A stretch of DNA of 58,452 nt from Chloroflexota bacterium (GTDB taxonomy: Bacteria > Chloroflexota > Anaerolineae > Anaerolineales > UBA11858). A program made the position numbers and the translations under genes. The DNA is taken from contig DAOUWT010000001.1 in assembly GCA_030666985.1 (NCBI GenBank), positions 1-58,452 of the forward strand, in the 5' to 3' direction. Below the pieces are notes generated by a model. That model was not told the origin of the DNA and searched no databases. It was given only the letters and a program-made list of their open reading frames with translations. Position 1 is the stretch's first letter, and each line of letters starts with the position of its first letter. Shown one piece after another: positions 4,677 through 22,004 of this stretch.

Positions 4677-4681
4677 CTTTG

Positions 4682-5762: not shown

Positions 5763-5791
5763 TTGACGGGTGTATCTCCTTATGCTATCCT
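5763..5791 (+). promoter_or_regulatory. Sigma70-like promoter candidate for the Roadblock operon
   Basis: TTGACG (5763-5768), 17 nt, TATCCT (5786-5791). An alternative TATAAT lies at 5821-5826. Confidence 0.3.
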
Positions 5792-5885: not shown

Positions 5886-6257
5886 TTGGCTAAGTCACGT
5901 TCCCAACTTATGATAGAACGCTTGCGAGATTTGCAGGCATCGTCGCCTGATATTGAGGCTTCAGCAATTGTCAGTGTAGATGGCTTGACAATTGCTTCTG
6001 CGTTGCCTCAGGATGTGGAAGAAGATCGTGTGTCCGCTATGTCGGCTGCAATGCTCTCCTTGGGCGAGCGAATTGCAGCTGAATTAGGCCGCGGTCAACT
6101 AGACCAGGTTTATATAAAAGGCGACGAAGGATATGTCGTGCTAATGTCTATTGGTGAAGAAGCTGTTCTTACAGCTTTGGCTCGCCAAGATGCGAAATTA
6201 GGCTTGATTTTCCTTGACATGCGACGTGCTACAGAAGACCTGGCACAATTTATTTAG
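5886..6257 (+). CDS. Roadblock/LC7 (MglB/CvnB-like) domain protein
   Basis: 123 aa with a typical Roadblock pattern (IEASAIVSVDGLTIAS...DRVSAMSAAMLSLGERIA...V.I.G..GYVVL). TTG start with a GGAGGG RBS 8 nt upstream. Confidence 0.85.
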   Translation: MAKSRSQLMIERLRDLQASSPDIEASAIVSVDGLTIASALPQDVEEDRVSAMSAAMLSLGERIAAELGRGQLDQVYIKGDEGYVVLMSIGEEAVLTALARQDAKLGLIFLDMRRATEDLAQFI

Positions 6258-6267
6258 GTGGTGAAAT

Positions 6268-6903
6268 ATGGAAGCTATTCCTGAAAGTGGGTTTTATTAC
6301 CCGAATAAATTTGCTTTGATCACGCTGAAAGCTCTCGAAGAGGTCATGGGCAGAAATGGTTTGAATGCCATTTTAAACTTGGCGAACTTACCACATTTGA
6401 TTGGGAATTATCCCGCCGATAACCTTAAAAAGGAGTTTGATTTTTCACACTTCTCGATGGTTGTTGAGGGATTGGAGGAGATGTATGGCCCCCGGGGTGG
6501 GAGGGGTCTGGCCTTACGAGCAGGACGGGCTACATTCTCGGATGCTCTGCGTGATTTTGGGGCATTGGCCGGAGCCGGAGATTTGGCTTTCAAGGTTTTG
6601 CCTCTCCAAGCGAAATTGCGGATTGGTATACCAGCGATGGCGAAAATCTTCTCCCAGATGAGTGACCAGAAAAGCACCGTCGAAGAAACAGATAGCGAAT
6701 ATATATATACCATTCACCGTTGTCCTGTTTGCTGGGGGCGAAGCGGAGAAGATAAACCGATTTGTTTTGTAGCTGTTGGCTTGCTTCAAGAAGGTCTGAA
6801 GTGGGTTTCTGGCGGAAATGAATTCCGCGTTAATGAATCCAAATGTGTCGCAATGGGACATGATGTTTGTGAATTCATTATTCAAAAGAAACCTATTGGA
6901 TAG
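6268..6903 (+). CDS. V4R (4-vinyl reductase) domain protein
   Basis: C-terminal V4R signature HRCPVCWGRSGEDKPICFVAVGLLQEGLKWVSGGNEFRVNESKCVAMGHDVCEFII. It starts 10 nt after the Roadblock gene. Confidence 0.8.
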   Translation: MEAIPESGFYYPNKFALITLKALEEVMGRNGLNAILNLANLPHLIGNYPADNLKKEFDFSHFSMVVEGLEEMYGPRGGRGLALRAGRATFSDALRDFGALAGAGDLAFKVLPLQAKLRIGIPAMAKIFSQMSDQKSTVEETDSEYIYTIHRCPVCWGRSGEDKPICFVAVGLLQEGLKWVSGGNEFRVNESKCVAMGHDVCEFIIQKKPIG

Positions 6904-6910
6904 GGGAGAA

Positions 6911-7786
6911 ATGGTTGTGGAAAATAAGGCGAATATTCTAATTGTAGAAGATGATTTGGATGTCGCAGAAATGCTCGAGGCATATTTCCGCGTTCAAGGG
7001 TATCAGGTCTCATCTGTTAATTGGGGAGAAGACGGCGTTAAAGCTTGTCGGAAGAACTTGCCGGATTTGGTGATCCTGGATATTCGTCTTCCAGATATTG
7101 ATGGCTTCGAAGTTGCCCGACGTTTGCGCAAAAATAATCGTACCGCGGGTATCCCAATTATTTTCTTGACCGAAAAGCGTACGCGTGCCGATCGTTTAGA
7201 AGGCCTTGGTTTGGGGGTTGATGACTACATTACAAAACCCTTTGATATCCAAGAATTACGTCTTCGGGTTCGGAATTTGCTTACCCGATCTGACCAACGC
7301 GCAATTAAAAATCCGGTGACGGGGCTGCCCGAAGATGCTCTGGTCAATGAACGATTAGAAGAATGTTTGGAAACCGCGGAAGGCTGGGTGTTATTGGTAA
7401 TTTCTCTGGAAAACCTGGATAGTTTTCGCGAACAATATGGCTTTGTAGCCTCCGATGATGTTCTACGAGCAACCAGTTTAATGATCCACAATGCTGTGCG
7501 TGATTTGGGCGGAACTTCTGATTTTGTGGGGCACATCAACCCTACTGATTTTCTAGTGGTGACTACCTCCGAAACGTTAGACGCCATTGGAGAACGGGTT
7601 AGGAAACGCCTAAAGCAAGCCCTTGAGTATTTTTATCCCTTGAAAGACCGCTCTCTTGGCGGGAAGATGCCTTCTCGCTTGACGTTGAGGATGGGGCTTT
7701 TATCTGCACAGAGCGGCCCTTTCGAGAATGTAGATGTCTTGAAGACTCAGTTGTTGCAACAAAGGGTGGGTAAAGCTAGCGATTGA
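6911..7786 (+). CDS. Response regulator: receiver domain plus degenerate GGDEF-like domain
   Basis: REC motifs ILIVEDD, LVILDIRLPDIDG, DDYITKPF. The C-terminal GGDEF fold has NPTDF in place of GGDEF. I chose ATG 6911 (GGGGAG RBS), not the tracked 6818. It is a paralogue of 18488-19372. Confidence 0.85.
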   Translation: MVVENKANILIVEDDLDVAEMLEAYFRVQGYQVSSVNWGEDGVKACRKNLPDLVILDIRLPDIDGFEVARRLRKNNRTAGIPIIFLTEKRTRADRLEGLGLGVDDYITKPFDIQELRLRVRNLLTRSDQRAIKNPVTGLPEDALVNERLEECLETAEGWVLLVISLENLDSFREQYGFVASDDVLRATSLMIHNAVRDLGGTSDFVGHINPTDFLVVTTSETLDAIGERVRKRLKQALEYFYPLKDRSLGGKMPSRLTLRMGLLSAQSGPFENVDVLKTQLLQQRVGKASD

Positions 7787-7787
7787 A

Positions 7788-8513
7788 GTGAATATAAAAG
7801 TTGTTGTTCCTACTTATAACGAAGCGGAGAACTTGCCCAAATTGGCCTCCGCTTTGTTTTATTTACCCCTTTCTGGGTTAAGCCTCCTTGTTGTCGATGA
7901 TAGCAGTCCGGATGGGACTGGTCAAGTCGCGGATAATTTGGTTCGAAAATATCCGGGTCGTGTTTCTGTGTTACATCGTTTGGGGAAGCGGGGTTTTGCC
8001 ACAGCGTATTTGGACGGGTTTGCGCGTGTTTTGGAAGAGGGGGCAGAAGTTATAGTGCAGATGGATGCGGATTTTTCTCATAATCCTGAGCGAATTATAG
8101 ATTTAGTAGAGGCTTTGCAGGAAGGGGATATGGCGGTGGGTTCCCGCTATATTGCAGGTGGAGAATTGGATGAAAATTGGCCTCTTTGGCGTAAAGCCCT
8201 CTCGGGTTTTGGAAATGCGTATGCCCGGTTGATTTTAGGAATTCCCATTAAGGATGTTACCGGCGGGTTCCGGGCCTGGCGGAGGGAGACGCTGTTGGGG
8301 ATGCCGTTGGGGCAGGTTAAATCAAACGGGTACGGTTTCCAGGTGGAGATGGCCTACTTAGCCCACCGTTGCGGGTACAGCATCAAAGAAATACCAATTT
8401 ATTTTGCAGATCGCCGTTGGGGGGAATCAAAGATGTCTTTAGCTATCCAGCTAGAAGCTGCCTGGCGGGTTTGGATAATCCGCTTTTCCTATGGCGACAT
8501 CAATGGCTGTTGA
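7788..8513 (+). CDS. GT2 glycosyltransferase, polyprenol-phosphate mannose synthase (Dpm1/Ppm1)-like
   Basis: VVVPTYNEAENL, VVDDSSPDGT, QMDADFSHNP, GSRYIAGG, GGFRAWRRE. The GTG start is 1 nt after the preceding stop. Confidence 0.8.
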   Translation: MNIKVVVPTYNEAENLPKLASALFYLPLSGLSLLVVDDSSPDGTGQVADNLVRKYPGRVSVLHRLGKRGFATAYLDGFARVLEEGAEVIVQMDADFSHNPERIIDLVEALQEGDMAVGSRYIAGGELDENWPLWRKALSGFGNAYARLILGIPIKDVTGGFRAWRRETLLGMPLGQVKSNGYGFQVEMAYLAHRCGYSIKEIPIYFADRRWGESKMSLAIQLEAAWRVWIIRFSYGDINGC

Positions 8514-8554: not shown

Positions 8555-8664
8555 ACCGTGGATTTTTTGGGGGGACGGGGGGGGCGTGAGAGCAACCCCC
8601 AATCGCTTGGCCACGCCTAAGCGTGGCACGCACGCCTAAGCGTGGCACGCACGCCTAAGCGTGG
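8555..8664 (+). repeat. Dispersed G-rich/hairpin element with a 19-nt tandem repeat (2.8 copies)
   Basis: ttttttggggggacggggggggcgtgagagcaacccccaa..., followed by cacgcctaagcgtggcacg starting at 8612, 8631 and 8650. Each unit contains a CCACGC-ctaa-GCGTGG hairpin. Confidence 0.85.
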
Positions 8665-10303: not shown

Positions 10304-11092
10304 TTAGCGCACGCGCCTTTTCCATTCCTCTTTGAGATGTAATTTCCGAGGGCTTTGGCCAGGCTCGAGGGTGAGGAAATCATTCATCAATCGATTGAAT
10401 TCATTAGGTCTGTCTAACATTGGGAAGTGCCCCGCTCCCTCCAGGGAAATGTGATGGAAGTGGAGAGGAAGGGTTTTAAGCATTTGTTGGGGTGGGTTTT
10501 GGATAGCAATGTCTTCTTCTCCATGGACCAGAAGACAGGGATGAGAAATGTGACGAGAGAGGTTATGGAGATCCTTGCCTTGCAGGGATTTAAGGGATTG
10601 GATAATGGCTTGCGGGTCTGTTTTGGGGGCGTCTTGACGAGCTTGGTCGCCATCGGGAGTATTGCTCAGAAGCCATGAGGCCAGTTCTTCGGGTTTCGTG
10701 TTTTCAAAACGAGAGTCAATCAGGCTTGAATCAAAAGGGAGACCAATGGCTAAAATGCGGTCTACGTATTTGGGGTGTTTTTGGGCAAAGATGGCCGCTA
10801 TAATTGCGCCGAGTCCGTGACCAATGAGGGCTATTTTCCCGATCCCCATGTTATCGAGGAAATCGTCTAAGAGGGTGACTTGTTTTTCTATGGCATAGCC
10901 ATCGAGGTTCCTGGCGGTGTCTCCAAATCCCCACATGTCTAATGCGTAGGCGCGGAAAGACACTGATGCCGCTTGCATGCTTGGTATCCAATAGCGCCAG
11001 GATCCTACCCAGCCATGCAGGAAAACAAGCGGACGGCCGCGTCCGAGAGCTTCATAATGGACTATTTCGTCTTGGATGATAATTGCACTCAT
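10304..11092 (-). CDS. Alpha/beta-hydrolase-fold protein lacking the nucleophile serine (GHGLG instead of GxSxG)
   Basis: LVFLHGWVGSW, nucleophile elbow IALIGHGLGAI (codon GGA), and retained acid/His regions (HGEEDIAI, GAGHFPMLD). It is a paralogue of 22005-22796, which has GHSMGG. Confidence 0.85.
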   Translation of the reverse strand: MSAIIIQDEIVHYEALGRGRPLVFLHGWVGSWRYWIPSMQAASVSFRAYALDMWGFGDTARNLDGYAIEKQVTLLDDFLDNMGIGKIALIGHGLGAIIAAIFAQKHPKYVDRILAIGLPFDSSLIDSRFENTKPEELASWLLSNTPDGDQARQDAPKTDPQAIIQSLKSLQGKDLHNLSRHISHPCLLVHGEEDIAIQNPPQQMLKTLPLHFHHISLEGAGHFPMLDRPNEFNRLMNDFLTLEPGQSPRKLHLKEEWKRRVR

Positions 11093-11099
11093 GTATGTT

Positions 11100-11471
11100 T
11101 TAGGTAGTTTGATCTAGTATTTGCTTTACTTCAGTAGTAAGCTCGTCAGGTGAAAAAGGCTTCAGGATATATTTGACAGCGCCAAGTTCCAAGCCGGTTT
11201 GGATTTCTTTGTCTTGGCCTTTTGCGGACAGGAAAACCAAGGGTATGTTTTTTAGTTCTTGATATGTTTTTATCTTTTCGCAGGCTTCGTACCCGGTCAT
11301 CTTGGGCATGCGGACATCCATGAGAATCATATCAGGTTTTTCGCTAATAACTTTTTGAAGGGCTTCTTCACCGTTTGTGGTGGCAATGACTTCGTGCCCG
11401 TCTAATTGCAAAGTAAAAACGATTAGATTTCTGATGTCTTTTTCGTCTTCTGCGATAATGATTTTCGCCAT
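11100..11471 (-). CDS. Single-domain response regulator (CheY-like receiver)
   Basis: IIIAEDE, MILMDVRMPKMTG, LSAKG, ILKPF. 123 aa. Confidence 0.9.
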   Translation of the reverse strand: MAKIIIAEDEKDIRNLIVFTLQLDGHEVIATTNGEEALQKVISEKPDMILMDVRMPKMTGYEACEKIKTYQELKNIPLVFLSAKGQDKEIQTGLELGAVKYILKPFSPDELTTEVKQILDQTT

Positions 11472-11599: not shown

Positions 11600-14500
11600 T
11601 TATGTTTCTCGATGAATGGGGAGAGTGAAGGAAAAGGTTGTGCCTTCTCCGAGTACCCCGTTGCTTTCGAGCCAGATGCGCCCTTTGTGCATTTGAATGA
11701 GTTGTTGGACTATAGAAAGCCCTAAACCAGTTCCAGAAGTAGCTATTACGAGAGGGTCTTCGCCTCGATAGAAACGTTCGAAGACTTTTGCGTGATCTTC
11801 AGGAGGGATGCCTACGCCTGTGTCCTTGATATCGATCTGGATTTCATCCTCGCTTTTTGCGCTTTGGGCGTGGACAGTGAGGGTAATATGCCCGTCTTCT
11901 GGAGTGTAGTGGTATGCATTTGCGAGCAGGTTGCCTAAAACTTGGTGAAGGCGCTCGGGGTCGCCGTTCACTATAGGTAGGTGGGGGGGGGTATCTAGGG
12001 TGAAGGTGAGTTCTTTTTGGTCGCCTTCAGACAATTCTTGGATGCCTTGCCAGACCTCTCGAAGGATAGGCTCAATCTGGATAGGTTGGATTGAAATGGA
12101 AATGCGACCCGCTTCGAGATGAGAGATATCTAGTAGATCATCTACCAGGATTTCCAGCCGGGTGGTGTTGGCCTTGACAATGTTTAGAAAGTCAGTTTGC
12201 CTATCTGACATTTCACCTGCAGCGCCCATCAACATGACGTCCACATATCCCTTTATCGAAGTCATAGGAGTGCGGAGTTCATGGCTAACCGTGGCTACAA
12301 ATTCCGATTTGAGGCGGTCTACTTCCACTTGGTGGGTGATATCGCGGAAGTTGGAAACTGTGCCTAGGAATTCATCTTGCATGGTAACGGGCGCGAGTTG
12401 AACAGAGGTAATGGCTCCATTATCGAGTGTGATTTGCTCTGAATAACTAACCTCCGAAGTTGTTTTTTCGCCTGATGACCAGGCCCGAATGGTTTCGATC
12501 CAGTTTTGGGCCGATTCACCAAATAAGCCGCTGAATTGTTCTAAAGATTTCCCGACGACTTTTGATCTATCTAAGTCTAGAATGGTTTCCGCGGCATCAT
12601 TGAAAAGGGTGATTTCTCGTTCGGCATTGGTAACAATAACCCCGTCAGCTACGGATTCCAAGATCGCCCGCGAACGGCTGGCTTCAACTTTTTGTGCGCG
12701 AAGCATTTGCCCCAACTCGATGGTTTGCTCTTGGATGTAATCAACCAATTGGGTGTTGTTGATGGCGACGGCTATTTGCTTTGCGGTTGCGTGGAGTAAT
12801 TCTTTTTGGTATTCGTTGAACTTCCTGGTTTGACGGCTGAAGAGAGAGATTGCGCCAAGTATATCTGCTCCATGCGCAATTGGCGCTATAATCGCGCTGC
12901 GGAGATCAGGATCAACTGTATCAGTGGATACCCATCTATCATCTGTGAGAATATCATCAACCACATAGCTTTGGTTGTGGGCGATTGCCCACCCTGCCAG
13001 ACCTTCGTCTTTCTTGAGACCGGAGGGGCGACCCCCAAGAGGCGGGGCTTCCATATAGCCACATGCAGCCCGGTAATAAAGATACTCTTCTTCTGGTCGA
13101 ATGAGGAGTATGGTGCTTTGATCAGCCTCTAGGGAAGAGTTTAGGAGGTTTAGTGTATGGTGGAGCACTTCATCCAGGTCTAGGCTGGCAGAGAGGGCTT
13201 TGAGGACGGCTAAGAGCATTTGAGAACGGTCGTGTTCTCGTTCCAGGTCTCGGGTTCGCTCGAAGACTCTTTGCTCAAGATTTGCGGTAAGAAGAGCGTT
13301 GTAGATAGATATTGCTGCCTGGTTGGCGATTATACGACTTAGCTCTATTTCTTCATTTGTGAAGCGGTGCTGGTGATCAGTTTGAATGAACAGGAAGCCC
13401 TGTAAGTCACTGCCTGTGATCAGCGGCAAAATTAGCAAACTCTTCGTTCCCCTTTGCCTGAAGAATTCATGGATGGGGGCGAGCATTTCCTCATCTTCTA
13501 CGTTTCTAGTTACAAAGACGCCTTGGGATTGTTGGATGTGTTCGAAGATTGGCGTATATGGTAGTTCATGGGGGTATGCTAGCCTTAGATCTAGCTTTCG
13601 AGAGAGTTCGGCCTGTAAGATGGCTTTCTTTTCCTTGGTCCAGAGAATGCCGGAAATGACGGAGTGGTGAATAAGTTCTGAAAGCTCTTTCAGTGTGATC
13701 TGGAAGCTTTCGTCTAAATTGAGAGATCTACTCAACTCATTTGAGAATCGGTTGAGCATCGCTAGACGCCGGGTGCGTTGGTCTAGCTCCTGGGCTCGTT
13801 CCACGCTTTCTTGGTAGAGGCCTGCGTTTTCTATGGAAATTGCGGCCTGGCTTCCAAAGGTTTGCAGCATCTGAGAGTGGGTAGATGTATAGAACCCTGG
13901 TTTGTGTTTTTCTAGGGCGATCACGCCTAGGACTTGACCTTTAGTTAAAAGAGGGACGCCTAGCCATGAGTTGGGGCCTTTTTGCTCTGCGGCTGGGAAG
14001 CGAGCATCTTTTTGGATATTGGAAACCACAAGTGGTTCACCGGTTCGAATCATCTCGTACATTAACTTGCTTTCGCTTACTTTAGTGCTTATCCCAATTA
14101 GCTCTTGGTTGTTTTCGAAGCCGCGTGCCGCGCGTATGGTTAGTTGACCGGCTTTGTGCAGCCAGAGGGCGCTTGTGTCGTAAGAGATTATTGTTGCGAG
14201 TTGCGTGAGCAGAGTATCAACCAATTCTTCGCGTTTTAAACCCGAGGAGGTGATGCTCGAAGTAGCTTGCGTGAGAGCTTCAAGTTGGGTGGCACGCTGT
14301 TCGGCTGCCTGGATTAACTGGACATTATCGAGCGCCAGGGCTGTTTGCCGGGCGAGCGAACCGAGCAAAGCTTGATCCTGGTTAGAAAAAGCACTTTCTT
14401 GCTCAAAGTTATCGAGAAGGACAATCCCCAATTGCTTGTCTCGCGTTTTGATGGGGGCTGCCAGACTCGAGATGGGCAGCAGGCCGCCAGTCCCATCTCG

Positions 14501-17500
14501 ATATAGGAGTAAATTGTTTTTTTCTAGCTCGTAATCTTGTGCAAAGTTCACCACATCCAGGCGAAGCGGATTCTTGCTCTGAAATACTTTTCCGACGAAT
14601 CCTCTTTGGGGTGAAAAAGTGATTTCTAATAATGAGGGCGTTTTTTGGTACCCGTCAGCAAGTTGCGGGATTAATTTTTTGCGAGTTTGGTCATTTAAGA
14701 GGATCATGACCCCTTGGGCAACAGGGATAAGCTGTTGGGCGCTTTCTAGGAGGGTTTTAATGATCAAGCCGGGACTTAACTCTCCCAGTTTGCGACTGAA
14801 GTCTAGCAATATATTTACTTCGCTTAGGCGCTGGCTGGTTTCTGTGAGGAGTTTGACATTTTGGATTGTATAAGAGGCTTGCTGGCTGAGCAACTCGTAT
14901 AAGCGGATTTCATCGGGACTGAATTCAGGGAAAGTTTCTTTGCTAAAAGTCAGAATAGCTGCTTCTACACCAGCAAAAGTGGTGATGGGTATGGTGATTA
15001 TTCCTCTTGCCTCCAATGTTTGGATGAGAGGGGACTTTGACCAATTGCTATCGCCGTTTATGTTTGCATCGTAGACAATTTCCCTTTGCCGTATACTCTG
15101 GACAAGTGGGTTTTGGCGGCCAAGCAGGGGATTTAACTTGGCTATGGGCGGGGTTTCTCCTCCAGTGTACAGCAGGCGCGGCCCGCCCGATCCAGGTTCA
15201 GTGATCAAATAACCGTTCATCCCCATGAGGTTCAGGAATTCCTCGCCCAAGGTTCGTAAGATGGCTTCCCGGTGGGGTTGACGATTGAGAGAGGAGATAA
15301 GCTCTAAACTGGATTGAATGCGTTTAGCTTTGACTTCCAGGCGTTTCGTCTCTGCTTCCCTCGCAACATGGGCGGCGCTGGCCCTAAGCTCAGAGAGTTT
15401 TTTGTGACTTTCAATGGCCAGGGATGCCTGGCTGGCAAAAATCCCCAGCGTTTCGACCGCTGCTTGGGTTGGTCGTAAGTGGTCTTGAGGTGTATCTACT
15501 CTAATAAGGCCTAATGGATGACCAGACGTGTCCTGGAGAGGAATGACAAGGAGGTCTTCTGGCCGCCAGATTTCCTTTGGTATAGCCTGGATGCCTAATT
15601 CCTCCATTCCTGCTTGGCTTGCTGCCGATATCGCTTGGATGTCAGTCAATGTGGGTGGTCTATCTTCAGAAGGGATGAAGTAAGAACGTCCAAATTTAAA
15701 ATCATCCCGTAGTATTTCTCGAAGGCTGTTCCAATTTTGAGGTTTTTCTTTTAATTCTTCTAAGGCCTCAAGAGGAAATCCAACTCCACTAAGATTATGT
15801 AGGCCCTGGTCTGCCTCCTCGTACACACTTATCAAAACTTTGGTGAAGGAAGTAGAGGCCTGAATACCGTAGGCAATATTCTCGAGGGCTTGCTCGAGGG
15901 GTTGGTCGAGACTGAGTTCTTCAGAGGTTTTGAACAAGTTGGAGAGAATTTTCACTCGCTGGTTCAAGAGCGTGGTCTGTTCTATCTGTTGTTGGTAGCG
16001 TTGGGCGTTTCCCAGGGCGATGGCTGCCTGAACTGATAAGGCCTCGATAATGCTGCGGGAGGTTTTGTCAAAATGCTCTGCTTGGCTTGCGTGGAGGTGG
16101 ATCAAACCGGCTACCTGGTCTTGGTAGGTGATAGGCACTATGAGCGAGGAGCGTATTCCCTTATGGGGGGGAGCGGTGGGGGGCTGAAAATCATCGACAT
16201 TGAGCGTCTTCCCCGTGTTAAGGACAACGCGCTCCAAGGGGTGAAGTTCGTCGTGAAGATCATCGCCAATGTGGAGCATGATACCGGGATGGGTGGGACG
16301 GGTATCCCCTTGTTCGAGAAGGAAAATTGCCCCACAATTTGCTTGTGTCAGTCGAATAGCTTCTTCGAATACCAGTTGCAGGAGGGTCTCAAGGTCAAGA
16401 GTGCTGTTCAAAGCCTGACTGACGCGCGTTAGTGCTGTAAGTTGCTCTACGCGTTGGCGTAAAGTGGCGTCAGTTTCTATTGTCAGGGAAACCCTTTCGA
16501 GAGCACTGGCAATCTGTCTGGCAATCGCAGAGACCAATTGTAGGTCAACTTTCTGGAAAGCCTCCTCATACGAGTTGCTTAGAAGAATTTCTCCAATCCC
16601 CCGGCCACGGATGATCAATGGGACAATGATCAGGGATGATATTTGGAGGGTTTTTACTGCTTTTTGGTAAAGTTCCGGAATGTCTGGGTCAGTCTTAGCC
16701 TGACCGGAAAAGATGGGTTGGGCTGTGTATGTGACCGTCTTGTGAAAATCAGATGCACTTGCCAATTGCGTAAATTTTATTTGGGTATCTTGGCCTAGTT
16801 GATGACCAGATATGTCATGTAGTTCTAGTTTCGCTTGGCTCTCGTCAAGTAGGAAAACAGCTCCTTTTTCAGCTTTTATGAGACGAACGAGTTCCAAGAG
16901 AGAATACTTGAGAATTTCATCAGTGGTAGCTTCGGAGCCAGCCAGGTTAGCAATCCGGCGAATAGCCTCTGAGCGGAGGGCGCGTTTTATGGATTGGTGG
17001 AGTAGTTCGGCGTTTTCGATGAGTGGTGCAGTTTGTCCGGCTATGATTTCCAGAAGGCGTTTATCGTTCCCGGTCAGTTTGCCTCCCGATTTCTTATTGG
17101 CCACCTGCAAATAACCGAGATTGCGCCCCCTTGAAATTAGCGGAACTAGAATAGTAGCGTGTATTCCGGCTGCCTGGGCAATATGGTCGATTCCTAGGGC
17201 TTGGAGACGGTGGTCATCTGGAGCTTCAGGTGTCAGGATGCTTTGTTCTTTTTCCCAAACCTGTTCAGCCGGGCCTCCTACCGCTATCTCTGTTTTATAC
17301 ATTTCTATGATGTAGGCAGGAATCCCGATAAAAGGATTTCGTGCTTCTAAGATGTGTTTGTTCTCGTTGTAAATCAGGAAACCGGCAATATTTACATCAA
17401 GGAGTGAAGGGATATTTTTCAATAATTGGGAGAAAAGCTCGTTTAGATTGCGAGCCGACCCGCTGACTTGCGAAAGTTCGGCCAGACTCGATAATTCGCG

Positions 17501-18481
17501 TGCTCTTTCTTGTTCTTTCTGGTAGATAATAGAGTTATGAATAGCGATGGCGGCCTGTTCTGATACGAGTTCTAAGACGGCAAGATCATTCTCTGTGAAG
17601 GCGTCTTCGTTGCGAGCGGTGACTTCTAGCGTTCCTAGAAATTCTTCACCCAAAGTGAGGGGAACTCCCAGGTAAGATTGGAAGGGCCGCCTGGTACGGC
17701 TGAATGTGGGGCGTATTTTTTCGAAGCTTGCTACATTAGGGATCAAGAGCGATTCGTGATACTTGGCAATATGGCCACTAAATCCCTTCCCAAGTTGGTA
17801 TTGCGGGAAAGCTTTTTTAATTGTGCGTTCTAAGCCAATTAAGCCAACTAGATGGTAAGGCTGGAGGGTTTCGGTGTCAGCGTTCCAGAGAGTAGCTTCC
17901 GCTGAATCTGTGGGCAAGAGTTCTTCTATACTTTCTAAGACAGATTTTAGAGTAGGTTCTAAGGCTAAATCTGCAATTGTTGAAGCCGTGAGTTTATTTA
18001 TGATTTGGAGTGCCTGATTGCTTGAATCGCCTTTTATGGTGGGGTGTGGAATTTCTCTGGGAGTGTGAAGAGTCACCACCATGGCGCTTCCTGATGGGTG
18101 AGGAACATGGTAAGAAGTTCCTTCTACTGATTTTCCTTTGAGGGTAAACGTTGCTTGTCCTTCCGCGGCGGATAGTTTTAAAAGAGCTTCACTGGGACGA
18201 GAACGGCGTGCTAAGTGTTCTAAGTCTGGGATCTCTTCTGGTACATCGAACCATTGGCGAGCCAGGGGGTTGAGCGTGAGCACCCGTCCTTCACCCCCAA
18301 CGACAATTACCGCATCGTGGTGTTCGGGGATTTCTACTAGCGCCGAAGTGGGAGCGGGACCCCTTTGTACGGCGGGGTGTCGCCTCGAGACAACCCGCAA
18401 CAGCAGGAGGGTCAACCCCATGAAGGTTCCCCCGGTTAGGATAAGCGTTATCCCTATGGAAGGTATGCCAAGCTGAAACAT
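11600..18481 (-). CDS. Giant membrane-anchored sensor histidine kinase: N-terminal TM, 10 GAF domains, PAS, HisKA, HATPase_c
   Basis: 2293 aa. Ten C-terminal GAF signatures of the type LGVPL..G..LG.L......F...D...L...A.Q.A.AI.NA. PAS segment ILESVADGVIVTN.... H-box SEFVATVSHELRTP (His codon 12281-12283). N, G1 and G2 boxes (LLANAYHYTP, DTGVGI, GTGLGLSIV). Confidence 0.95.
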   Translation of the reverse strand: MFQLGIPSIGITLILTGGTFMGLTLLLLRVVSRRHPAVQRGPAPTSALVEIPEHHDAVIVVGGEGRVLTLNPLARQWFDVPEEIPDLEHLARRSRPSEALLKLSAAEGQATFTLKGKSVEGTSYHVPHPSGSAMVVTLHTPREIPHPTIKGDSSNQALQIINKLTASTIADLALEPTLKSVLESIEELLPTDSAEATLWNADTETLQPYHLVGLIGLERTIKKAFPQYQLGKGFSGHIAKYHESLLIPNVASFEKIRPTFSRTRRPFQSYLGVPLTLGEEFLGTLEVTARNEDAFTENDLAVLELVSEQAAIAIHNSIIYQKEQERARELSSLAELSQVSGSARNLNELFSQLLKNIPSLLDVNIAGFLIYNENKHILEARNPFIGIPAYIIEMYKTEIAVGGPAEQVWEKEQSILTPEAPDDHRLQALGIDHIAQAAGIHATILVPLISRGRNLGYLQVANKKSGGKLTGNDKRLLEIIAGQTAPLIENAELLHQSIKRALRSEAIRRIANLAGSEATTDEILKYSLLELVRLIKAEKGAVFLLDESQAKLELHDISGHQLGQDTQIKFTQLASASDFHKTVTYTAQPIFSGQAKTDPDIPELYQKAVKTLQISSLIIVPLIIRGRGIGEILLSNSYEEAFQKVDLQLVSAIARQIASALERVSLTIETDATLRQRVEQLTALTRVSQALNSTLDLETLLQLVFEEAIRLTQANCGAIFLLEQGDTRPTHPGIMLHIGDDLHDELHPLERVVLNTGKTLNVDDFQPPTAPPHKGIRSSLIVPITYQDQVAGLIHLHASQAEHFDKTSRSIIEALSVQAAIALGNAQRYQQQIEQTTLLNQRVKILSNLFKTSEELSLDQPLEQALENIAYGIQASTSFTKVLISVYEEADQGLHNLSGVGFPLEALEELKEKPQNWNSLREILRDDFKFGRSYFIPSEDRPPTLTDIQAISAASQAGMEELGIQAIPKEIWRPEDLLVIPLQDTSGHPLGLIRVDTPQDHLRPTQAAVETLGIFASQASLAIESHKKLSELRASAAHVAREAETKRLEVKAKRIQSSLELISSLNRQPHREAILRTLGEEFLNLMGMNGYLITEPGSGGPRLLYTGGETPPIAKLNPLLGRQNPLVQSIRQREIVYDANINGDSNWSKSPLIQTLEARGIITIPITTFAGVEAAILTFSKETFPEFSPDEIRLYELLSQQASYTIQNVKLLTETSQRLSEVNILLDFSRKLGELSPGLIIKTLLESAQQLIPVAQGVMILLNDQTRKKLIPQLADGYQKTPSLLEITFSPQRGFVGKVFQSKNPLRLDVVNFAQDYELEKNNLLLYRDGTGGLLPISSLAAPIKTRDKQLGIVLLDNFEQESAFSNQDQALLGSLARQTALALDNVQLIQAAEQRATQLEALTQATSSITSSGLKREELVDTLLTQLATIISYDTSALWLHKAGQLTIRAARGFENNQELIGISTKVSESKLMYEMIRTGEPLVVSNIQKDARFPAAEQKGPNSWLGVPLLTKGQVLGVIALEKHKPGFYTSTHSQMLQTFGSQAAISIENAGLYQESVERAQELDQRTRRLAMLNRFSNELSRSLNLDESFQITLKELSELIHHSVISGILWTKEKKAILQAELSRKLDLRLAYPHELPYTPIFEHIQQSQGVFVTRNVEDEEMLAPIHEFFRQRGTKSLLILPLITGSDLQGFLFIQTDHQHRFTNEEIELSRIIANQAAISIYNALLTANLEQRVFERTRDLEREHDRSQMLLAVLKALSASLDLDEVLHHTLNLLNSSLEADQSTILLIRPEEEYLYYRAACGYMEAPPLGGRPSGLKKDEGLAGWAIAHNQSYVVDDILTDDRWVSTDTVDPDLRSAIIAPIAHGADILGAISLFSRQTRKFNEYQKELLHATAKQIAVAINNTQLVDYIQEQTIELGQMLRAQKVEASRSRAILESVADGVIVTNAEREITLFNDAAETILDLDRSKVVGKSLEQFSGLFGESAQNWIETIRAWSSGEKTTSEVSYSEQITLDNGAITSVQLAPVTMQDEFLGTVSNFRDITHQVEVDRLKSEFVATVSHELRTPMTSIKGYVDVMLMGAAGEMSDRQTDFLNIVKANTTRLEILVDDLLDISHLEAGRISISIQPIQIEPILREVWQGIQELSEGDQKELTFTLDTPPHLPIVNGDPERLHQVLGNLLANAYHYTPEDGHITLTVHAQSAKSEDEIQIDIKDTGVGIPPEDHAKVFERFYRGEDPLVIATSGTGLGLSIVQQLIQMHKGRIWLESNGVLGEGTTFSFTLPIHRET

Positions 18482-18487
18482 GAATTT

Positions 18488-19372
18488 TTACTTATCTCGT
18501 CGTTCTTGGGCGGCCAATTCAGTGATTTCTCGAATATCTGAAAATTGGTGAGTGGCAGGTGAAACAACTCCAAGCGACAGCGTCATGAGCGGATAACGTT
18601 CTTCCTCTCCGGCTTCATTGGTGGCTGTGATATATCCTTGCTCTCGATCGATGAAGTGATAATGGGTGAGTACCTTCTCGGCAAAACGCTCTTTCACTTT
18701 TTGGGCAATGCCACTTGCCGCTTTGTGAGAAGTAGTGATGATAAAGTTATCGCCTCCCACATGCCCGATGAAGTCTTCAGGCGTCCCCGTTTCGTCGACA
18801 GTTTCATTGAGGATCATGGCGGTAAAACGGAGGACATCATCTCCCGTTACAAACCCATACACTTCCTTGAAGGCTTCAAAGTGGTCAATCCGGATGTCCA
18901 TCAAAGCCCAATTTTCTTCGCGAATGAGGCGGCGGAGTTGCTCCTCGATGAGGCGGCCCGAGGGAAGCCCTGAGCGGGGGTCAGTCAGGCTTTCCCGTTC
19001 GGCCCGGGAGATAGCATTCTTTACACGCAGGTTAAGTTCTTCGATATCAAAGGGTTTAGTGATGTAATCATCAGCTCCTAGTTCTAATCCCTGAAGCTTA
19101 TCGCTGCGCTCGTCTTTCTGAGTCAGGAAGATGACCGGGATGTGGCTGGTACGAGTGCTCGTCCGCAGACGACGGCAAACTTCATAGCCATCAATATCCG
19201 GAAGCATGATGTCCAAGACAATTAGATGCGGCATGTGTTTGCGTGTTTTCTCCAGCGCTTCTGAACCACGAGGGGCAACATCTACCTTATAGTTCTGGCC
19301 GGTGAAATAGATCTTGAGCATGTTCGAGATATCAAAGTCATCTTCTACAATCAATAGATGGGATTTGCTCAT
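18488..19372 (-). CDS. Response regulator: receiver domain plus degenerate GGDEF domain (GGDNF)
   Basis: LLIVEDD, LIVLDIMLPDIDG, DDYITKPF. The GGDEF fold has HVGGDNF. Its stop lies 6 nt upstream of the giant kinase start. 294 aa. Confidence 0.9.
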   Translation of the reverse strand: MSKSHLLIVEDDFDISNMLKIYFTGQNYKVDVAPRGSEALEKTRKHMPHLIVLDIMLPDIDGYEVCRRLRTSTRTSHIPVIFLTQKDERSDKLQGLELGADDYITKPFDIEELNLRVKNAISRAERESLTDPRSGLPSGRLIEEQLRRLIREENWALMDIRIDHFEAFKEVYGFVTGDDVLRFTAMILNETVDETGTPEDFIGHVGGDNFIITTSHKAASGIAQKVKERFAEKVLTHYHFIDREQGYITATNEAGEEERYPLMTLSLGVVSPATHQFSDIREITELAAQERRDK

Positions 19373-19420: not shown

Positions 19421-20497
19421 TTATTTTCTTTTTGCGTTCTCGCGAATGGTCTTTATTTGCATATCTGTAATGGGACGCTCGAATGAACGGAATCCGCTTA
19501 ATTTGAAACCATGTTTATCGGCAATTGCGGCAATTTCTCTTACCTGTCGAAGGTTTGATTTTTTCCCTAGACTATAGTCTTCGAACTTTCCTTCTAGTGC
19601 TAAGGCAATCGTCTCAGCCATGCAGGCGTAGGCTTTGCCAGGGGGGAAGCCAAAATCAAAATTGAAATTTACTAGCCCGGGAACATCGACGACGCCGCCA
19701 TCAATCACCAGGACATCGTCTCGCTCTTTAGCAATTGCCTCTGAAACGTCTCGAGGACGAGCAACATCGCAGATGACGCTTCCTGGGCGGAGATGCTGCG
19801 GTTGGACGATGGCTTGGACTGAGCTTGTCACGGTGAGGATTAGATCCGCCTCCCAGAGGCTGTTCAGGTCTGTGGATACGACCAATTGGGCAGAAGAATT
19901 GCCTTCTAATCTTGAATGAAGTTCATGCAATTTCTTTTCAGTGCGCCCGATCAAAAAGAGGCGGGCAACTTCTTCGGCAAGGAGAGCGGCGCAAACTTCA
20001 CCAATCGAGCCAGTGGCGCCAACCACGGCTGCGGTAGCCTCACTTACCTCGATATTCATTAACTTGGCTGCCTTGTGTATCGACTGGATGGCGGTTGCAA
20101 TTGTGTAGGAGTTGCCGGTCGTTACCGGGATATCTAAACGTTTTGCTACTGTTATCCCTCCGTCACCAACAACTGCTGTAAAGGCACCTAGCCCTACAAT
20201 ATCTGCTCCCAGCCGTTCCGCGAGACGCCCGGTCTGAACGATTTTCCGATAAGCGACCCACTCAGGTAATTCTACCATACGTTGCGAGGTTAACGGGCAG
20301 GCGATCAACCAGCCTTTGATTGTTTTTCCAGTGGATTCTGAAGTGATATTTTGAATTTCGGAAAGATAGACCGGCGGAAAGAAGGTGGAGAAAAAGTTGA
20401 TCAGCGGTGCATTGAGCACTTTCCCCAAAAAGGGGAATTTCCGTTTGACATCCCGTTTGGGGTCTATGGGGTGGATGATGAAAGCGAAGCTATCCAT
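19421..20497 (-). CDS. Acyl-ACP reductase (AAR)-family-like NAD(P)-dependent oxidoreductase
   Basis: From memory it is collinear with cyanobacterial AAR. Matching motifs: FIIHP vs LIGHL, GLGAFTAVV, TTGNSYT vs TTGNTHT, AAVVGATGSIG vs VAVVGATGDIG, ACMAETIALALEG vs ACFAEAMLLEFEG (the Cys aligned with the AAR catalytic Cys is present). Confidence 0.7.
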   Translation of the reverse strand: MDSFAFIIHPIDPKRDVKRKFPFLGKVLNAPLINFFSTFFPPVYLSEIQNITSESTGKTIKGWLIACPLTSQRMVELPEWVAYRKIVQTGRLAERLGADIVGLGAFTAVVGDGGITVAKRLDIPVTTGNSYTIATAIQSIHKAAKLMNIEVSEATAAVVGATGSIGEVCAALLAEEVARLFLIGRTEKKLHELHSRLEGNSSAQLVVSTDLNSLWEADLILTVTSSVQAIVQPQHLRPGSVICDVARPRDVSEAIAKERDDVLVIDGGVVDVPGLVNFNFDFGFPPGKAYACMAETIALALEGKFEDYSLGKKSNLRQVREIAAIADKHGFKLSGFRSFERPITDMQIKTIRENAKRK

Positions 20498-21784: not shown

Positions 21785-21834
21785 AGTGTAGGGTGTTCCA
21801 GGTATATAGTAGTGATTATTCAGCCCCTGTAGAT

Positions 21835-21975
21835 TTTTTGGGGGAGGGGTGCCACGCGGGGGGGGGGACGGGGGGGGTGGGGCGTGAGACCAACCCCCAA
21901 GCGTGACCCCACGCTCAAGCGGGGAGCAACCCTGGGGGGGACGGGGGGGTGCGCTCCCACCAATCTCCAACGGGG
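21835..21975 (+). repeat. Copy of the dispersed G-rich/hairpin element
   Basis: tttttgggggaggggtgccacgcggggggggggacggggggggtggggcgtgagaccaacccccaagcgtgaccccacgctcaagcgggg... shares blocks with 8555-8664 and with the reverse complement of 5621-5716. Confidence 0.75.
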
Positions 21976-22004
21976 AGTGAATGGTCACTCTGAGACTTGA
22001 GGTT

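What the first reader, a model, noticed from the sequence alone, without database searches (positions are those of the whole stretch)
5886..8513. Roadblock/LC7 - V4R - REC/degenerate-GGDEF - GT2 operon as the likely missing partner of the distant GTPase
Seen: four plus-strand genes are separated by 10, 7 and 1 nt. No GTPase is encoded here, and the only small GTPase in the window (22814-23353) has no Roadblock neighbour. The regulator here is a clear paralogue of the one preceding the giant kinase (same REC plus GGDEF-like layout). Known: Roadblock/LC7 proteins act as GAP/GEF platforms for MglA-like and Rag GTPases. V4R is, as far as I recall, the prokaryotic relative of the Bet3 fold used in the TRAPP GTPase exchange complex. 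Inference: this would be a split conservon-like system in which a V4R small-molecule-binding protein and a Roadblock protein regulate the GTPase, with output wired to a polyprenol-phosphate sugar synthase.
Basis: partly seen in the sequence, partly recalled or inferred. Interest (0 to 1): 0.7.

Follow-up and report, generated by a model that had tools for sequence, protein, structure and literature searches.

The report
Split Roadblock–V4R and small-GTPase signalling system
A four-gene operon in an Anaerolineae (Chloroflexota) bacterium (Roadblock, V4R sensor-like protein, response regulator, sugar-lipid synthase) very probably works with a small Ras-like GTPase encoded 14 kb away, because related bacteria carry the two gene sets side by side; this is a new variant of the known MglA/MglB-type GTPase switch.

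Summary
Four tightly packed plus-strand genes (gaps 10, 7 and 1 nt) encode Roadblock/LC7, a V4R protein, a REC plus degenerate-GGDEF regulator and a GT2 enzyme. The GT2's closest solved relative is dolichol-phosphate mannose synthase. The only stand-alone small GTPase in the window (22814-23353, minus strand) has no Roadblock neighbour.

The organism is an Anaerolineae bacterium. Robl-V4R was present in 68 of 68 related species-level loci, and the full four-gene set in 59 of 68. In one clade the operon runs straight into PATAN-GTPase and the genes that follow the GTPase in the window. In another set, PATAN-GTPase and GT2-V4R-Robl sit about 60 nt apart, convergent. A V4R paralogue lies inside the GTPase operon in many other lineages and has been lost in the window.

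The GTPase has the MglA group 2-5 motifs. The Roadblock carries the matching conserved Asp-Gly pair and is 47-55% identical to a Thorarchaeota Roadblock that clusters with a homologous GTPase.

Functional linkage is well supported. The "conservon" label fails its membership test, and GT2 as the output is untested. I rate this a new variant of a known kind, of moderate interest.

The parts
5886..6257 (+). Roadblock/LC7 (MglB/CvnB-like) protein, 123 aa, TTG start
   Evidence: Pfam Robl_LC7 2.8e-18. PDB hits: Thorarchaeota RB 7F8M 4e-31, CvnB5 3LEQ 1.5e-8, MglB about 0.03. The Asp-Gly pair is conserved in 99 orthologues. Only Roadblock in the window.
6268..6903 (+). V4R-domain protein, 211 aa, H-NOX/V4R/Bet3 superfold, invariant Cys cluster (C152, C155, C166, C193, C201)
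   Evidence: Pfam V4R 5.9e-11. 75-92% identity across Anaerolineae. AF2 pLDDT 89.8. Foldseek matches H-NOX, Thor-TRAPPC3, TRAPPC3, MopR/PoxR.
6911..7786 (+). Response regulator RR1: intact receiver domain plus GGDEF-fold domain without the catalytic motif (NPTDF)
   Evidence: Pfam REC 3e-28 and GGDEF 1.2e-7, partial. REC Asp/Lys conserved; GGDEF motif position not conserved in 76 orthologues. Paralogue of RR2.
7788..8513 (+). GT2 glycosyltransferase, polyprenyl-phosphate hexose synthase-like catalytic domain without a membrane domain, 241 aa
   Evidence: Pfam GT2 2e-27. PDB 5MLZ Dol-P-Man synthase 7e-35 over residues 1-218. DxD/DAD motifs conserved in 89 orthologues.
23398..24216 (-). PATAN/DUF4388 protein, 272 aa, first gene of the GTPase operon
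   Evidence: Pfam DUF4388 4e-25. Immediately upstream of the GTPase in 54/55 related loci.
22814..23353 (-). MglA-family small GTPase (group 2-5 motifs), 179 aa
   Evidence: Pfam ATP_bind_1/Ras/Arf. Motifs GPFSSGKT, TTT, GTPGQ, NKQD conserved in 93 orthologues and matching the published criteria. MglA 3T12 1.6e-7 over full length.
22005..22796 (-). Alpha/beta hydrolase 1, following the GTPase
   Evidence: Pfam. Conserved after the GTPase in most related loci.
21785..22004 (-). Position where relatives carry the V4R2 paralogue; deleted in the window
   Evidence: tblastn of L020 V4R2 finds only V4R1 in the window; only 220 nt remain between the flanking genes.
20501..21784 (-). Left-handed beta-helix (hexapeptide) protein, 427 aa; the listed 505-aa ORF is over-extended
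   Evidence: Orthologue alignment starts at 21784. Pfam. NCBIfam.
19421..20497 (-). Acyl-ACP reductase / PigE N-terminal-like NAD(P) reductase, 358 aa
   Evidence: NCBIfam PigE N-terminal region 3e-67, AcACP_reductase 9e-33, both below the family cut-offs.
18488..19372 (-). Response regulator RR2 (REC plus GGDEF-like domain, motif GGDNF), paralogue of RR1
11600..18481 (-). Giant histidine kinase, 2293 aa: about 9 GAF domains, PAS, HisKA, HATPase_c
   Evidence: Pfam. Conserved downstream of RR2 in relatives.
11100..11471 (-). Single-domain receiver protein following the kinase
   Evidence: Pfam. HK-REC-abh2 order conserved in outgroup loci L118, L142, L144.
10304..11092 (-). Alpha/beta hydrolase 2, last conserved gene of the GTPase/kinase operon

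Best explanation
The window holds the two halves of one signalling system that is conserved across Anaerolineae.

Half 1 (5886-8513, plus strand) is an operon for an MglB/CvnB-like Roadblock protein, a V4R ligand/redox-sensor-like protein, a phospho-receiver regulator with a dead GGDEF domain, and a soluble polyprenyl-phosphate hexose synthase-like GT2.

Half 2 (24216-10304, minus strand) encodes a PATAN protein, an MglA-family small GTPase, lipid/sugar-type enzymes, the paralogous regulator RR2, a giant GAF-rich histidine kinase, a single receiver and a second hydrolase.

Most likely mechanism:
- The Roadblock dimer, probably together with V4R, is the nucleotide-state regulator (GAP or GEF platform) of the GTPase.
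- V4R contributes a small-molecule or redox input through its cavity and Cys/Zn site.
- The giant kinase phosphorylates RR1, RR2 and the single-domain REC and so tunes the switch.
- The GTP-bound GTPase, with PATAN as adaptor, controls where or when envelope-building enzymes such as GT2 act.

Shown here: gene content, conservation, physical linkage of the two halves in relatives, motif-level family assignment, and fold. Inferred: all protein-protein contacts, the direction of regulation, the ligand and the output.
For: 1. The four-gene operon is conserved across at least 80 species-level genomes while its flanks are not.
2. Type A loci (L004, L008, L012, L020, L021/L104, L027, L058, L067, L107, L108, L111) are co-directional: Robl-V4R-RR1-GT2-PATAN-GTPase-abh-V4R2-LbH-reductase-RR2-HK. 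Every gene is orthologous to a window gene at 62-87% identity.
3. In type B loci (L086-L090, L092, L094-L103; 16 loci) PATAN-GTPase and GT2-V4R-Robl are convergent with a median gap of 59 nt. Their V4R forms a separate clade, so this may be an independent juxtaposition.
4. A V4R-family gene lies within 3 kb downstream of the GTPase in 21/36 GTPase-centred metagenome loci, including lineages outside the A/B/C clade.
5. A relative with the window's arrangement carries both halves about 14 kb apart on one 708-kb contig.
6. The GTPase has the GTPGQ, TT and NKQD motifs of MglA groups 2-5, and the Roadblock has the Asp-Gly pair reported for their coupled MglBs.
7. PATAN-MglA/MglB neighbourhoods are already documented.
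8. The Thorarchaeota Roadblock (47-55% identical) sits in a cluster with a GTPase that is 37% identical and carries the same GTPG core.
9. No second Roadblock or small GTPase was found in the window or in 168 related loci.
10. Robl, V4R and the GTPase are all unusually conserved: 80-93% identity where the enzymes are 60-75%.
Against: - In about 90% of V4R-centred species-level loci with good flanks (40/44), the GTPase is not within 10 kb.
- Types A, B and C fall in one larger clade of the PATAN tree, so independent juxtaposition events are few (one to three).
- In type A the GT2-PATAN gap is 72-193 nt, enough for a separate promoter.
- A close relative has lost GT2 from the operon, and type B has lost RR1. 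Neither is therefore indispensable.
- The rest of the source genome could not be searched, so other Roadblock or GTPase paralogues may exist.
- No V4R-Roadblock or V4R-GTPase fusion was found among the best 150 family representatives.
- No interaction, GAP/GEF activity or co-expression data exist.
Confidence: 0.6

Rival explanations
1. The Robl-V4R-RR1-GT2 operon is a self-contained unit that regulates or assists the soluble polyprenyl-phosphate sugar synthase. For example, V4R could handle a hydrophobic lipid carrier or ligand, Robl could act as an adaptor, and RR1 could be the phospho-input. The unit does not act on the GTPase. Adjacency in some relatives would then reflect a shared envelope-biogenesis pathway or regulon rather than direct GTPase regulation.
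For: Robl-V4R-GT2 stay together even when RR1 is lost (five RV-G genome loci and all type B loci). In most genomes the operon stands alone. The V4R/Bet3 fold has hydrophobic cavities that bind phenols or palmitate. GT2 lacks the membrane domain of its closest solved homologue, so it needs some partner or interface for membrane work. V4R modules elsewhere are fused to kinases, TIR and CHAT-FHA, never to GTPases.
Against: Roadblock proteins of this type are known as small-GTPase regulators, and this one carries the MglB Asp-Gly signature. A relative has lost GT2 but kept Robl-V4R-RR1. The V4R2 paralogue sits in the GTPase operon without any GT2. The homologous Thorarchaeota Roadblock clusters with a GTPase and no GT2.
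Confidence: 0.22
2. The linkage is only legacy synteny. The two gene sets happened to lie next to each other in one ancestor of a sub-clade of Anaerolineae and are functionally unrelated. The window simply shows a later rearrangement.
For: Types A, B and C belong to one larger clade of the PATAN tree. Most other lineages keep the loci apart.
Against: Adjacency survives in two different orientations, with different intervening content and with divergent V4R/Robl copies. V4R2 links the V4R family to the GTPase operon outside that clade. Flanking genes are otherwise not conserved around either module. The family-level expectation that Roadblock pairs with an MglA-like GTPase is independent of the synteny.
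Confidence: 0.1
3. The cluster is an anti-phage or conflict system, or RR1 is an active diguanylate cyclase that signals through c-di-GMP.
For: Members of the V4R family in other organisms are fused to TIR, CHAT and protein-kinase domains. RR1 and RR2 match Pfam GGDEF.
Against: No PADLOC family matches beyond generic receiver-domain similarity. The genes are inherited vertically at 60-90% identity across a whole class, with fixed order. That pattern is unlike defence islands. The GGDEF signature is NPTDF in RR1 and is not conserved; it is GGDNF in RR2.
Confidence: 0.03

Closest known systems
MglA/MglB small-GTPase polarity switch (Myxococcus xanthus, Thermus thermophilus), specifically the 'group 5' MglA-family systems of Wuichet and Sogaard-Andersen 2014 (PMC4316618), some of which have PATAN neighbours
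   Same: A Ras-superfamily GTPase with the G1-G2 insertion, the GTPGQ G3 motif and Thr in place of the intrinsic Arg finger. A Roadblock/LC7 protein with the conserved Asp-Gly pair. A PATAN-domain protein encoded beside the GTPase. Links to two-component signalling.
   Different: The Roadblock and GTPase genes are 14 kb apart on opposite strands in the window, so both would count as 'orphans' by the four-gene criterion. The Roadblock is invariably paired with a V4R protein and usually with a REC/dead-GGDEF regulator and a Dol-P-Man-synthase-like GT2. Sequence similarity to characterised MglB is marginal (E about 0.03). No motility genes are nearby.
Streptomyces conservon (CvnA kinase, CvnB Roadblock, CvnC DUF742, CvnD GTPase)
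   Same: It combines a sensor histidine kinase, a Roadblock protein (CvnB5 3LEQ matched at 1.5e-8) and an MglA-family GTPase in one signalling unit.
   Different: No DUF742/CvnC homologue is present. The GTPase has a canonical NKQD G4 motif rather than the conservon NxFD/DAR motifs. The kinase is a 2293-aa GAF/PAS protein followed by receiver proteins. PATAN, V4R and enzymes are added. There is no compact four-gene operon.
Eukaryotic and Asgard TRAPP / Ragulator-type GTPase platforms (Bet3/TRAPPC3 fold plus longin/Roadblock folds)
   Same: The three folds are encoded together: a small GTPase, a Roadblock and a V4R/Bet3-superfold protein. The V4R model matches Thor-TRAPPC3 7YH3 (TMt 0.69) and TRAPPC3 6AQ3. 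The Roadblock is 47-55% identical to Thorarchaeota RB.
   Different: The best fold matches are H-NOX domains. Sequence identity to TRAPPC3 is 12-17%. There are no longin subunits and no evidence of GEF activity. In Asgard archaea these genes are reported not to be in operons, whereas here they are genetically linked.
V4R sensor domains of PoxR/MopR and MsvR
   Same: A V4R C-terminal motif with a conserved Cys cluster, and a fold match to the MopR/PoxR phenol-sensor domains.
   Different: This is a stand-alone 211-aa protein with no DNA-binding or AAA+ domain. PDB V4R entries are not detectable by sequence. It is encoded with a Roadblock protein.

Membership tests
MglA family of small GTPases, groups 2-5 (Wuichet and Sogaard-Andersen 2014) | P-loop GxxxxGK[ST] | tested here: met
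   GPFSSGKT, conserved in 93 orthologues.
MglA family of small GTPases, groups 2-5 (Wuichet and Sogaard-Andersen 2014) | G3 motif GTPGQ, and Thr instead of the intrinsic Arg next to the G2 Thr | tested here: met
   LFGTPGQ and ETTTVAMDF, invariant. Criteria quoted from the paper.
MglA family of small GTPases, groups 2-5 (Wuichet and Sogaard-Andersen 2014) | Canonical [NT]KxD G4 motif (groups 1, 4, 5; deviant in groups 2 and 3) | tested here: met
   NKQD. Together with Chloroflexi taxonomy and the PATAN neighbour, this points to group 5.
MglA family of small GTPases, groups 2-5 (Wuichet and Sogaard-Andersen 2014) | Phylogenetic placement inside a named group | not tested
MglB / Roadblock-LC7 GTPase regulators | Robl_LC7 domain above Pfam's gathering score | tested here: met
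   65.9 bits against a cut-off of 23. Solved homologues 7F8M, 7YH1, 3LEQ; MglB itself only at E about 0.03.
MglB / Roadblock-LC7 GTPase regulators | Conserved Asp-Gly pair of MglBs coupled to group 2-5 MglAs | tested here: met
   VSVDGL is invariant in 99 orthologues; criterion. Positional equivalence to the published column was judged by eye, not by a joint alignment.
MglB / Roadblock-LC7 GTPase regulators | Encoded within four genes of its MglA ('coupled') | tested here: not met
   In the window the two genes are 14 kb and 14 genes apart on opposite strands. The criterion is met in type B relatives (Robl, V4R, GT2, GTPase) and narrowly missed in type A, where four genes intervene.
MglB / Roadblock-LC7 GTPase regulators | GAP (or GEF) activity on the partner GTPase | not testable with these tools
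   Needs biochemistry.
Streptomyces conservon (CvnABCD) | CvnC (DUF742) protein in the unit | tested here: not met
   No DUF742 hit in Pfam scans of the genes of both loci.
Streptomyces conservon (CvnABCD) | Group 2 GTPase motifs (NxFD G4, DAR G5) | tested here: not met
   The G4 motif is NKQD; criteria.
Streptomyces conservon (CvnABCD) | Compact operon with the kinase, Roadblock and GTPase genes adjacent | tested here: not met
   The kinase is 5 genes from the GTPase, and the Roadblock lies in another operon.
V4R / Bet3(TRAPPC3) / H-NOX superfold | V4R Pfam domain and the two-layer alpha/beta fold | tested here: met
   V4R 42.7 bits against a cut-off of 31. AF2 pLDDT 89.8. Foldseek probability 1.0 to H-NOX, TRAPPC3 and MopR/PoxR.
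V4R / Bet3(TRAPPC3) / H-NOX superfold | Cys (Zn) cluster as in PoxR/MopR and Thor-TRAPPC3 | tested here: inconclusive
   Five invariant Cys (C152, C155, C166, C193, C201) plus H150. Metal binding and which residues coordinate were not determined.
TRAPP complex subunit (Bet3 proper) | Specific similarity to Bet3 over other superfold members, and co-occurrence with longin-type TRAPP subunits | tested here: not met
   H-NOX ranks above TRAPPC3, and identity to TRAPPC3 is 12-17%. No longin-domain gene appears in either locus.
GGDEF diguanylate cyclases | GG[DE]EF active-site motif | tested here: not met
   RR1 has NPTDF, not conserved among 76 orthologues. RR2 has GGDNF.
Polyprenyl-phosphate hexose synthases (DPM1 / Ppm1 / GtrB type GT2) | GT2 catalytic domain with DxD motifs, homologous to a solved Dol-P-Man synthase | tested here: met
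   5MLZ 7e-35 over residues 1-218. VDDSSPDG and QMDADFSH conserved. NCBIfam hits are all below the family cut-offs.
Polyprenyl-phosphate hexose synthases (DPM1 / Ppm1 / GtrB type GT2) | Lipid-phosphate acceptor and sugar donor specificity; membrane anchoring | not testable with these tools
   The protein ends at 241 aa without the transmembrane domain of 5MLZ (374 aa). The substrate is unknown.

The most novel reading that the evidence does not exclude
Anaerolineae carry a bacterial counterpart of the eukaryotic and Asgard 'platform' logic. In this reading, a Roadblock dimer and a V4R (Bet3/H-NOX superfold) protein form one ligand- or redox-gated GAP/GEF platform for an MglA-like GTPase. The GTPase, through PATAN, then recruits a soluble dolichol-phosphate-mannose-synthase-like enzyme and lipid enzymes to defined membrane sites. 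The Roadblock/GTPase pair would share recent ancestry, by inter-domain transfer, with the Thorarchaeota pair whose Roadblock structure is solved. This would be the first genetically linked Roadblock + Bet3-fold + GTPase unit. In Asgard archaea the pairings cannot be read from the genome.
Probability: 0.15. Interest if true: 0.85.

Novelty: new variant of a known kind. Interest (0 to 1): 0.58.

Why it matters
Small Ras-like GTPases regulated by Roadblock proteins control polarity and development in a few model bacteria. They also underlie the Ragulator and TRAPP platforms of eukaryotes. About half of prokaryotic Roadblock genes, and many MglA-like genes, are 'orphans' with unknown partners.

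This case shows how such orphans can be paired by comparative gene order. It also defines a class-wide, highly conserved system in Anaerolineae, a group that is abundant in sediments and sludge but poorly studied. The system adds a V4R sensor-like protein, a PATAN protein, dead-GGDEF regulators and a sugar-lipid synthase to the basic switch.

It is the only setting I found in which a Bet3-superfold protein, a Roadblock and a small GTPase are genetically linked. That makes the proposed ancestry of TRAPP-like GTPase platforms experimentally approachable with soluble bacterial proteins, one of which has a 55%-identical solved structure.

Tried and rejected
1. Sequence search of the V4R profile against the PDB found nothing meaningful, only chance transferrin-receptor hits at E of 0.1 or more. 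The fold had to be obtained by AF2 plus Foldseek.
2. Single-sequence AF2 of the PATAN protein failed (pLDDT 37), so nothing can be said about its fold. The weak PDB hit to the PilB N-terminus (E 0.045) is not significant.
3. Rfam found no RNA family in the window.
4. Promoter and terminator scans around the operon were no better than shuffled sequence. A TTGACG-17-TATCCT site at 5763-5791 and a GGTATAAT at 5820 are only candidates.
5. The TPR gene upstream of Robl was compared with the TPR gene in the Thorarchaeota GTPase-Robl cluster and showed only generic repeat similarity (21% identity). I rejected it as a shared component.
6. A UbiA/MenA-like gene lies near Robl in 20/80 genome loci, and YfhO genes occur near type B loci. 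These were too inconsistent to include in the system.
7. Defence-system membership was rejected.
8. A search for V4R-Roadblock or V4R-GTPase fusions found none among the best 150 family representatives; the fusions that exist are with TIR, protein kinase, CHAT-FHA and DUF433.
9. A simple story in which type B derives from the window type by deletion is not supported. Type B V4R/Robl copies are much more divergent and branch outside all canonical copies.

Full report
**1. Observation**

Pfam E-values are 2.8e-18, 5.9e-11, 3e-28/1.2e-7 and 2e-27.

The gaps are 10, 7 and 1 nt. Shine-Dalgarno-like purine runs sit in the first two spacers. The regulator's real start is ATG 6911, not the longer overlapping ORF from 6818.

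The small GTPase at 22814-23353 is on the minus strand. HMMs built from orthologues find exactly one Roadblock, one V4R and one small GTPase among all window ORFs of 40 aa or more. FeoB at 1644-3572 has its own G domain.

The two REC/GGDEF-like regulators are 39% identical over their full length, E 1e-82.

**2. Organism and conservation**

V4R and GTPase homologues are almost all from Anaerolineae/Chloroflexota MAGs, at 75-92% and 89-97% identity respectively.

I examined 80 species-level genome loci centred on V4R. Among the 68 with enough flank:
- Robl-V4R is present in 68/68.
- The regulator is present in 62/68 and GT2 in 64/68.
- All four genes are present in 59/68.

The genes outside the cluster differ from locus to locus. 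The median Robl-V4R spacer is 13 nt. This is a selected operon, not a chance arrangement.

**3. The two window loci are neighbours in relatives**

*Type A.* In loci L004, L008, L012, L020, L021/L104, L027, L058, L067, L107, L108 and L111, one co-directional array reads Robl-V4R-RR1-GT2-PATAN-GTPase-hydrolase-V4R2-LbH-reductase-RR2-giant kinase. Each product is orthologous to a window product: Robl 86%, V4R 80%, RR1 66%, GT2 62%, PATAN 67%, GTPase 87%, and the remainder 66-74%.

*Type B.* In 16 loci (L086-L090, L092, L094-L103), PATAN-GTPase and GT2-V4R-Robl are convergent with a median gap of 59 nt, and RR1 is absent.

*Type C.* This is the window's own layout. Read on the minus strand it is PATAN-GTPase-hydrolase-LbH-reductase-RR2-kinase-REC-hydrolase2-ThyA-DHFR, meeting the end of GT2-RR1-V4R-Robl. 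It recurs in L002 and in a relative whose two halves lie about 14 kb apart on one 708-kb contig. That relative has lost GT2.

A single inversion of the segment that starts right after GT2 would convert type A into the window's layout. I could not see the far end of type A arrays, so this remains a consistent scenario rather than a demonstrated one.

**4. How independent is this evidence?**

An NJ tree of PATAN proteins places types A, B and C as three sister groups inside one larger clade. Outside it, the PATAN-GTPase operon stands alone. Among V4R-centred genome loci with at least 5 kb on both sides, only 4/44 have the GTPase within reach. Juxtaposition events are therefore few.

Two facts add weight.

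First, type B V4R and Robl are much more divergent (58-62% and 67-76% identity to the window) than canonical copies, although the type B GTPase is 90-92% identical. In a V4R tree they branch outside all canonical V4R1. That fits either a separate paralogous Robl-V4R-GT2 module placed next to the GTPase, or accelerated evolution after the loss of RR1.

Second, a 43%-identical paralogue, V4R2, lies inside the GTPase operon (PATAN-GTPase-hydrolase-V4R2, or PATAN-GTPase-V4R2) in lineages spread over the whole PATAN tree.

In a GTPase-centred metagenome sample:
- PATAN is immediately upstream in 54/55 loci.
- A V4R-family gene lies within 3 kb downstream in 21/36 loci.
- Of the 19 loci with both flanks, 6 have the Robl-V4R module adjacent, 5 have V4R2 only and 8 have neither.

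The window has lost V4R2. Only 220 nt remain between the flanking genes.

**5. Family assignment**

*GTPase.* It carries GPFSSGKT, TTT in G2, GTPGQ in G3 and NKQD in G4, all invariant in 93 orthologues. Wuichet and Sogaard-Andersen give GTPGQ and Thr-for-Arg as the marks of MglA groups 2-5, with canonical G4 in groups 1, 4 and 5. They report group 5 in Chloroflexi, sometimes next to PATAN genes. T. thermophilus MglA aligns over the full length at 1.6e-7.

*Roadblock.* It has the conserved Asp-Gly pair described for MglBs coupled to groups 2-5. It matches CvnB5 at 1.5e-8, but characterised MglB only at about 0.03.

Its best solved relative, 7F8M (E 4e-31), belongs to a Thorarchaeota Roadblock family. 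In two Thorarchaeota genomes that gene ends a co-directional cluster of GTPase, TPR protein, a roughly 1290-aa protein and Robl. The GTPase there is 37% identical to the window's and shares the LFGTPG core. The same Roadblock subfamily is therefore linked to the same GTPase subfamily in another domain of life.

**6. The other components**

*V4R.* The AF2 model is confident (pLDDT 89.8). Foldseek matches H-NOX domains best (TM 0.6-0.68). Next come Thor-TRAPPC3 (TMt 0.69), eukaryotic TRAPPC3 and the MopR/PoxR phenol sensors, all at probability 1.0. This agrees with the published V4R-Bet3 homology and with the H-NOX/PoxR similarities of Thor-TRAPPC3.

Five Cys and one His are invariant, compatible with the Zn site seen in PoxR and Thor-TRAPPC3.

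The family is small: 1151 clusters at E of 1e-3 or less among 1.84 billion representatives. Elsewhere it is fused to TIR, Ser/Thr kinase, CHAT-FHA and DUF433, which suits a portable sensor module.

*Regulators.* RR1 has an intact receiver but NPTDF in place of GGDEF, and that position is not conserved. RR2 has GGDNF. Neither is a plausible cyclase.

*GT2.* It matches Pyrococcus Dol-P-Man synthase at 7e-35 over its catalytic domain, keeps the DxD motifs and lacks the membrane domain.

*Kinase.* It has about nine GAF domains, a PAS, HisKA and HATPase_c.

*Enzymes between GTPase and RR2.* These are an alpha/beta hydrolase, a hexapeptide-repeat protein and an acyl-ACP-reductase/PigE-N-like reductase.

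**7. Interpretation**

The best reading is one system split over two loci: an MglA/MglB-type switch (GTPase plus Roadblock) with PATAN and V4R accessory proteins. Input would come from a giant GAF kinase through paralogous dead-GGDEF regulators. Envelope lipid and sugar enzymes, including GT2, would be co-regulated or recruited outputs.

The linkage is shown by gene order. The contacts, the GAP-versus-GEF direction, the ligand and the output are all inferred. I put 0.6 on this reading.

The rivals are:
- An autonomous GT2-regulating module that does not touch the GTPase (0.22).
- Legacy synteny without shared function (0.1).
- A defence system or active c-di-GMP signalling, rejected (0.03). 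There are no PADLOC hits, inheritance is vertical, and the GGDEF motif is dead.

**8. Comparison with the known, and novelty**

PATAN next to MglA/MglB homologues is already documented. The 'conservon' label fails three defining features:
- There is no DUF742/CvnC.
- The G4 motif is canonical.
- There is no compact operon.

In the paper library I found no description of a bacterial Roadblock-V4R operon or of its link to a GTPase. The Asgard study states that GTPase, Roadblock and TRAPPC3 genes are not in operons there.

I therefore file this as a new variant of a known kind. Its interest is moderate. It would rise if the Roadblock-V4R pair proves to be a ligand-gated GTPase platform.

**9. Limits**

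- Only the window and 10-kb neighbourhoods of relatives were available, so other paralogues in the genome cannot be excluded.
- The trees are NJ without support values.
- The metagenome loci may include redundant populations.
- No interaction or expression data exist.

Noticed in passing
window 21785-22004 (between 22005-22796 and 20501-21784, minus strand): Relatives carry a 209-aa V4R paralogue (V4R2, 43% identical to V4R1) here, between the hydrolase and the hexapeptide-repeat gene. The window has only a 220-nt gap and no remnant detectable by tblastn. The ORF listed as 20501-22018 (505 aa) is over-extended; orthologues start at 21784.
   Followed up: yes
window 24526-25241 (minus) and 25812-26607 (plus): Two probable toxin-antitoxin pairs lie just upstream of the PATAN gene: a TumE-like toxin with a small upstream ORF, and a nucleotidyltransferase (Polbeta/NTP_transf_2) with an NTase_sub_bind (HEPN-like) partner. 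In relatives this position holds a conserved 420-447-aa protein with no Pfam or NCBIfam match (L082, L086-L102), which is absent from the window.
   Followed up: partly
window 4278-4357, 4434-4676, 10123-10295: Short tandem arrays: a 7-mer TGAAACG x11, an 8-mer CCAATCTC x30, and 8/15/24-mers near 10.2 kb. They generate several overlapping spurious ORFs of 110-140 aa on both strands (for example 4212-4757). They sit in intergenic regions on either side of the operon's wider neighbourhood.
   Followed up: partly
window 8612-8664 and 5676-5709: A perfect 19-nt tandem repeat (CACGCCTAAGCGTGGCACG x2.8) lies just downstream of GT2. A related inverted copy (3 mismatches; none expected by chance) lies just upstream of the Robl promoter region, overlapping a terminator-like hairpin. 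The four-gene operon is thus bracketed by copies of one short element, possibly relevant to the rearrangement that separated it from the GTPase locus.
   Followed up: partly
L169 2304-8363; L171 and L172 2264-8363 (Thorarchaeota): The window's Roadblock is 47-55% identical to a Thorarchaeota Roadblock family that includes the solved structure 7F8M. That gene closes a cluster of GTPase, TPR protein, a roughly 1290-aa protein and Robl, whose GTPase is 37% identical to the window's but has Leu in place of the catalytic Gln (GTPGL). Identity this high between a bacterial class and an Asgard lineage suggests inter-domain transfer.
   Followed up: partly
L086-L090, L092, L094-L103 (type B loci): Here V4R and Robl are far more divergent from the window (58-62% and 67-76%) than the adjacent GTPase (90-92%), and they branch outside all canonical V4R1 copies. 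This points to a distinct paralogous Robl-V4R-GT2 module or to accelerated evolution after loss of the regulator gene.
   Followed up: partly
L084 and L085 (ERZ1757541 contig_861 and a Logan contig): This close relative has the window's arrangement but has lost GT2. Robl-V4R-RR1 is followed after 236 nt by DHFR, so GT2 is not indispensable to the operon.
   Followed up: no
P0304, P0319, P0323, P0334, P0390, P0444, P0391 (V4R family representatives): The full 200-aa V4R module of this family is fused in other organisms to TIR, Ser/Thr protein kinase (with or without TIR), CHAT-FHA and DUF433 domains. This indicates a portable sensor or partner-binding module in signalling or conflict systems.
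   Followed up: partly
window 27158-35605 and 51831-55478: A 2815-aa secreted-looking protein carries long Pro/Thr-rich linkers, repeated YD-like beta-propeller units, two leucine-rich-repeat blocks and dockerin/cohesin-like ends. A 1215-aa Sortilin/BNR-repeat protein lies further along. Both sit in lower-GC stretches (0.36-0.44 against about 0.48-0.53).
   Followed up: no
20 of the 80 V4R-centred genome loci, listed (for example L004, L020, L067); also L087 and L088: A UbiA/MenA-type prenyltransferase gene lies near or directly upstream of Robl in 20 of 80 genome loci and near type B loci. YfhO-type (GT-C) genes lie within 5-8 kb of GT2 in 7 type B loci. These may be hints of a polyprenyl-linked pathway, but the pattern is inconsistent.
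   Followed up: partly
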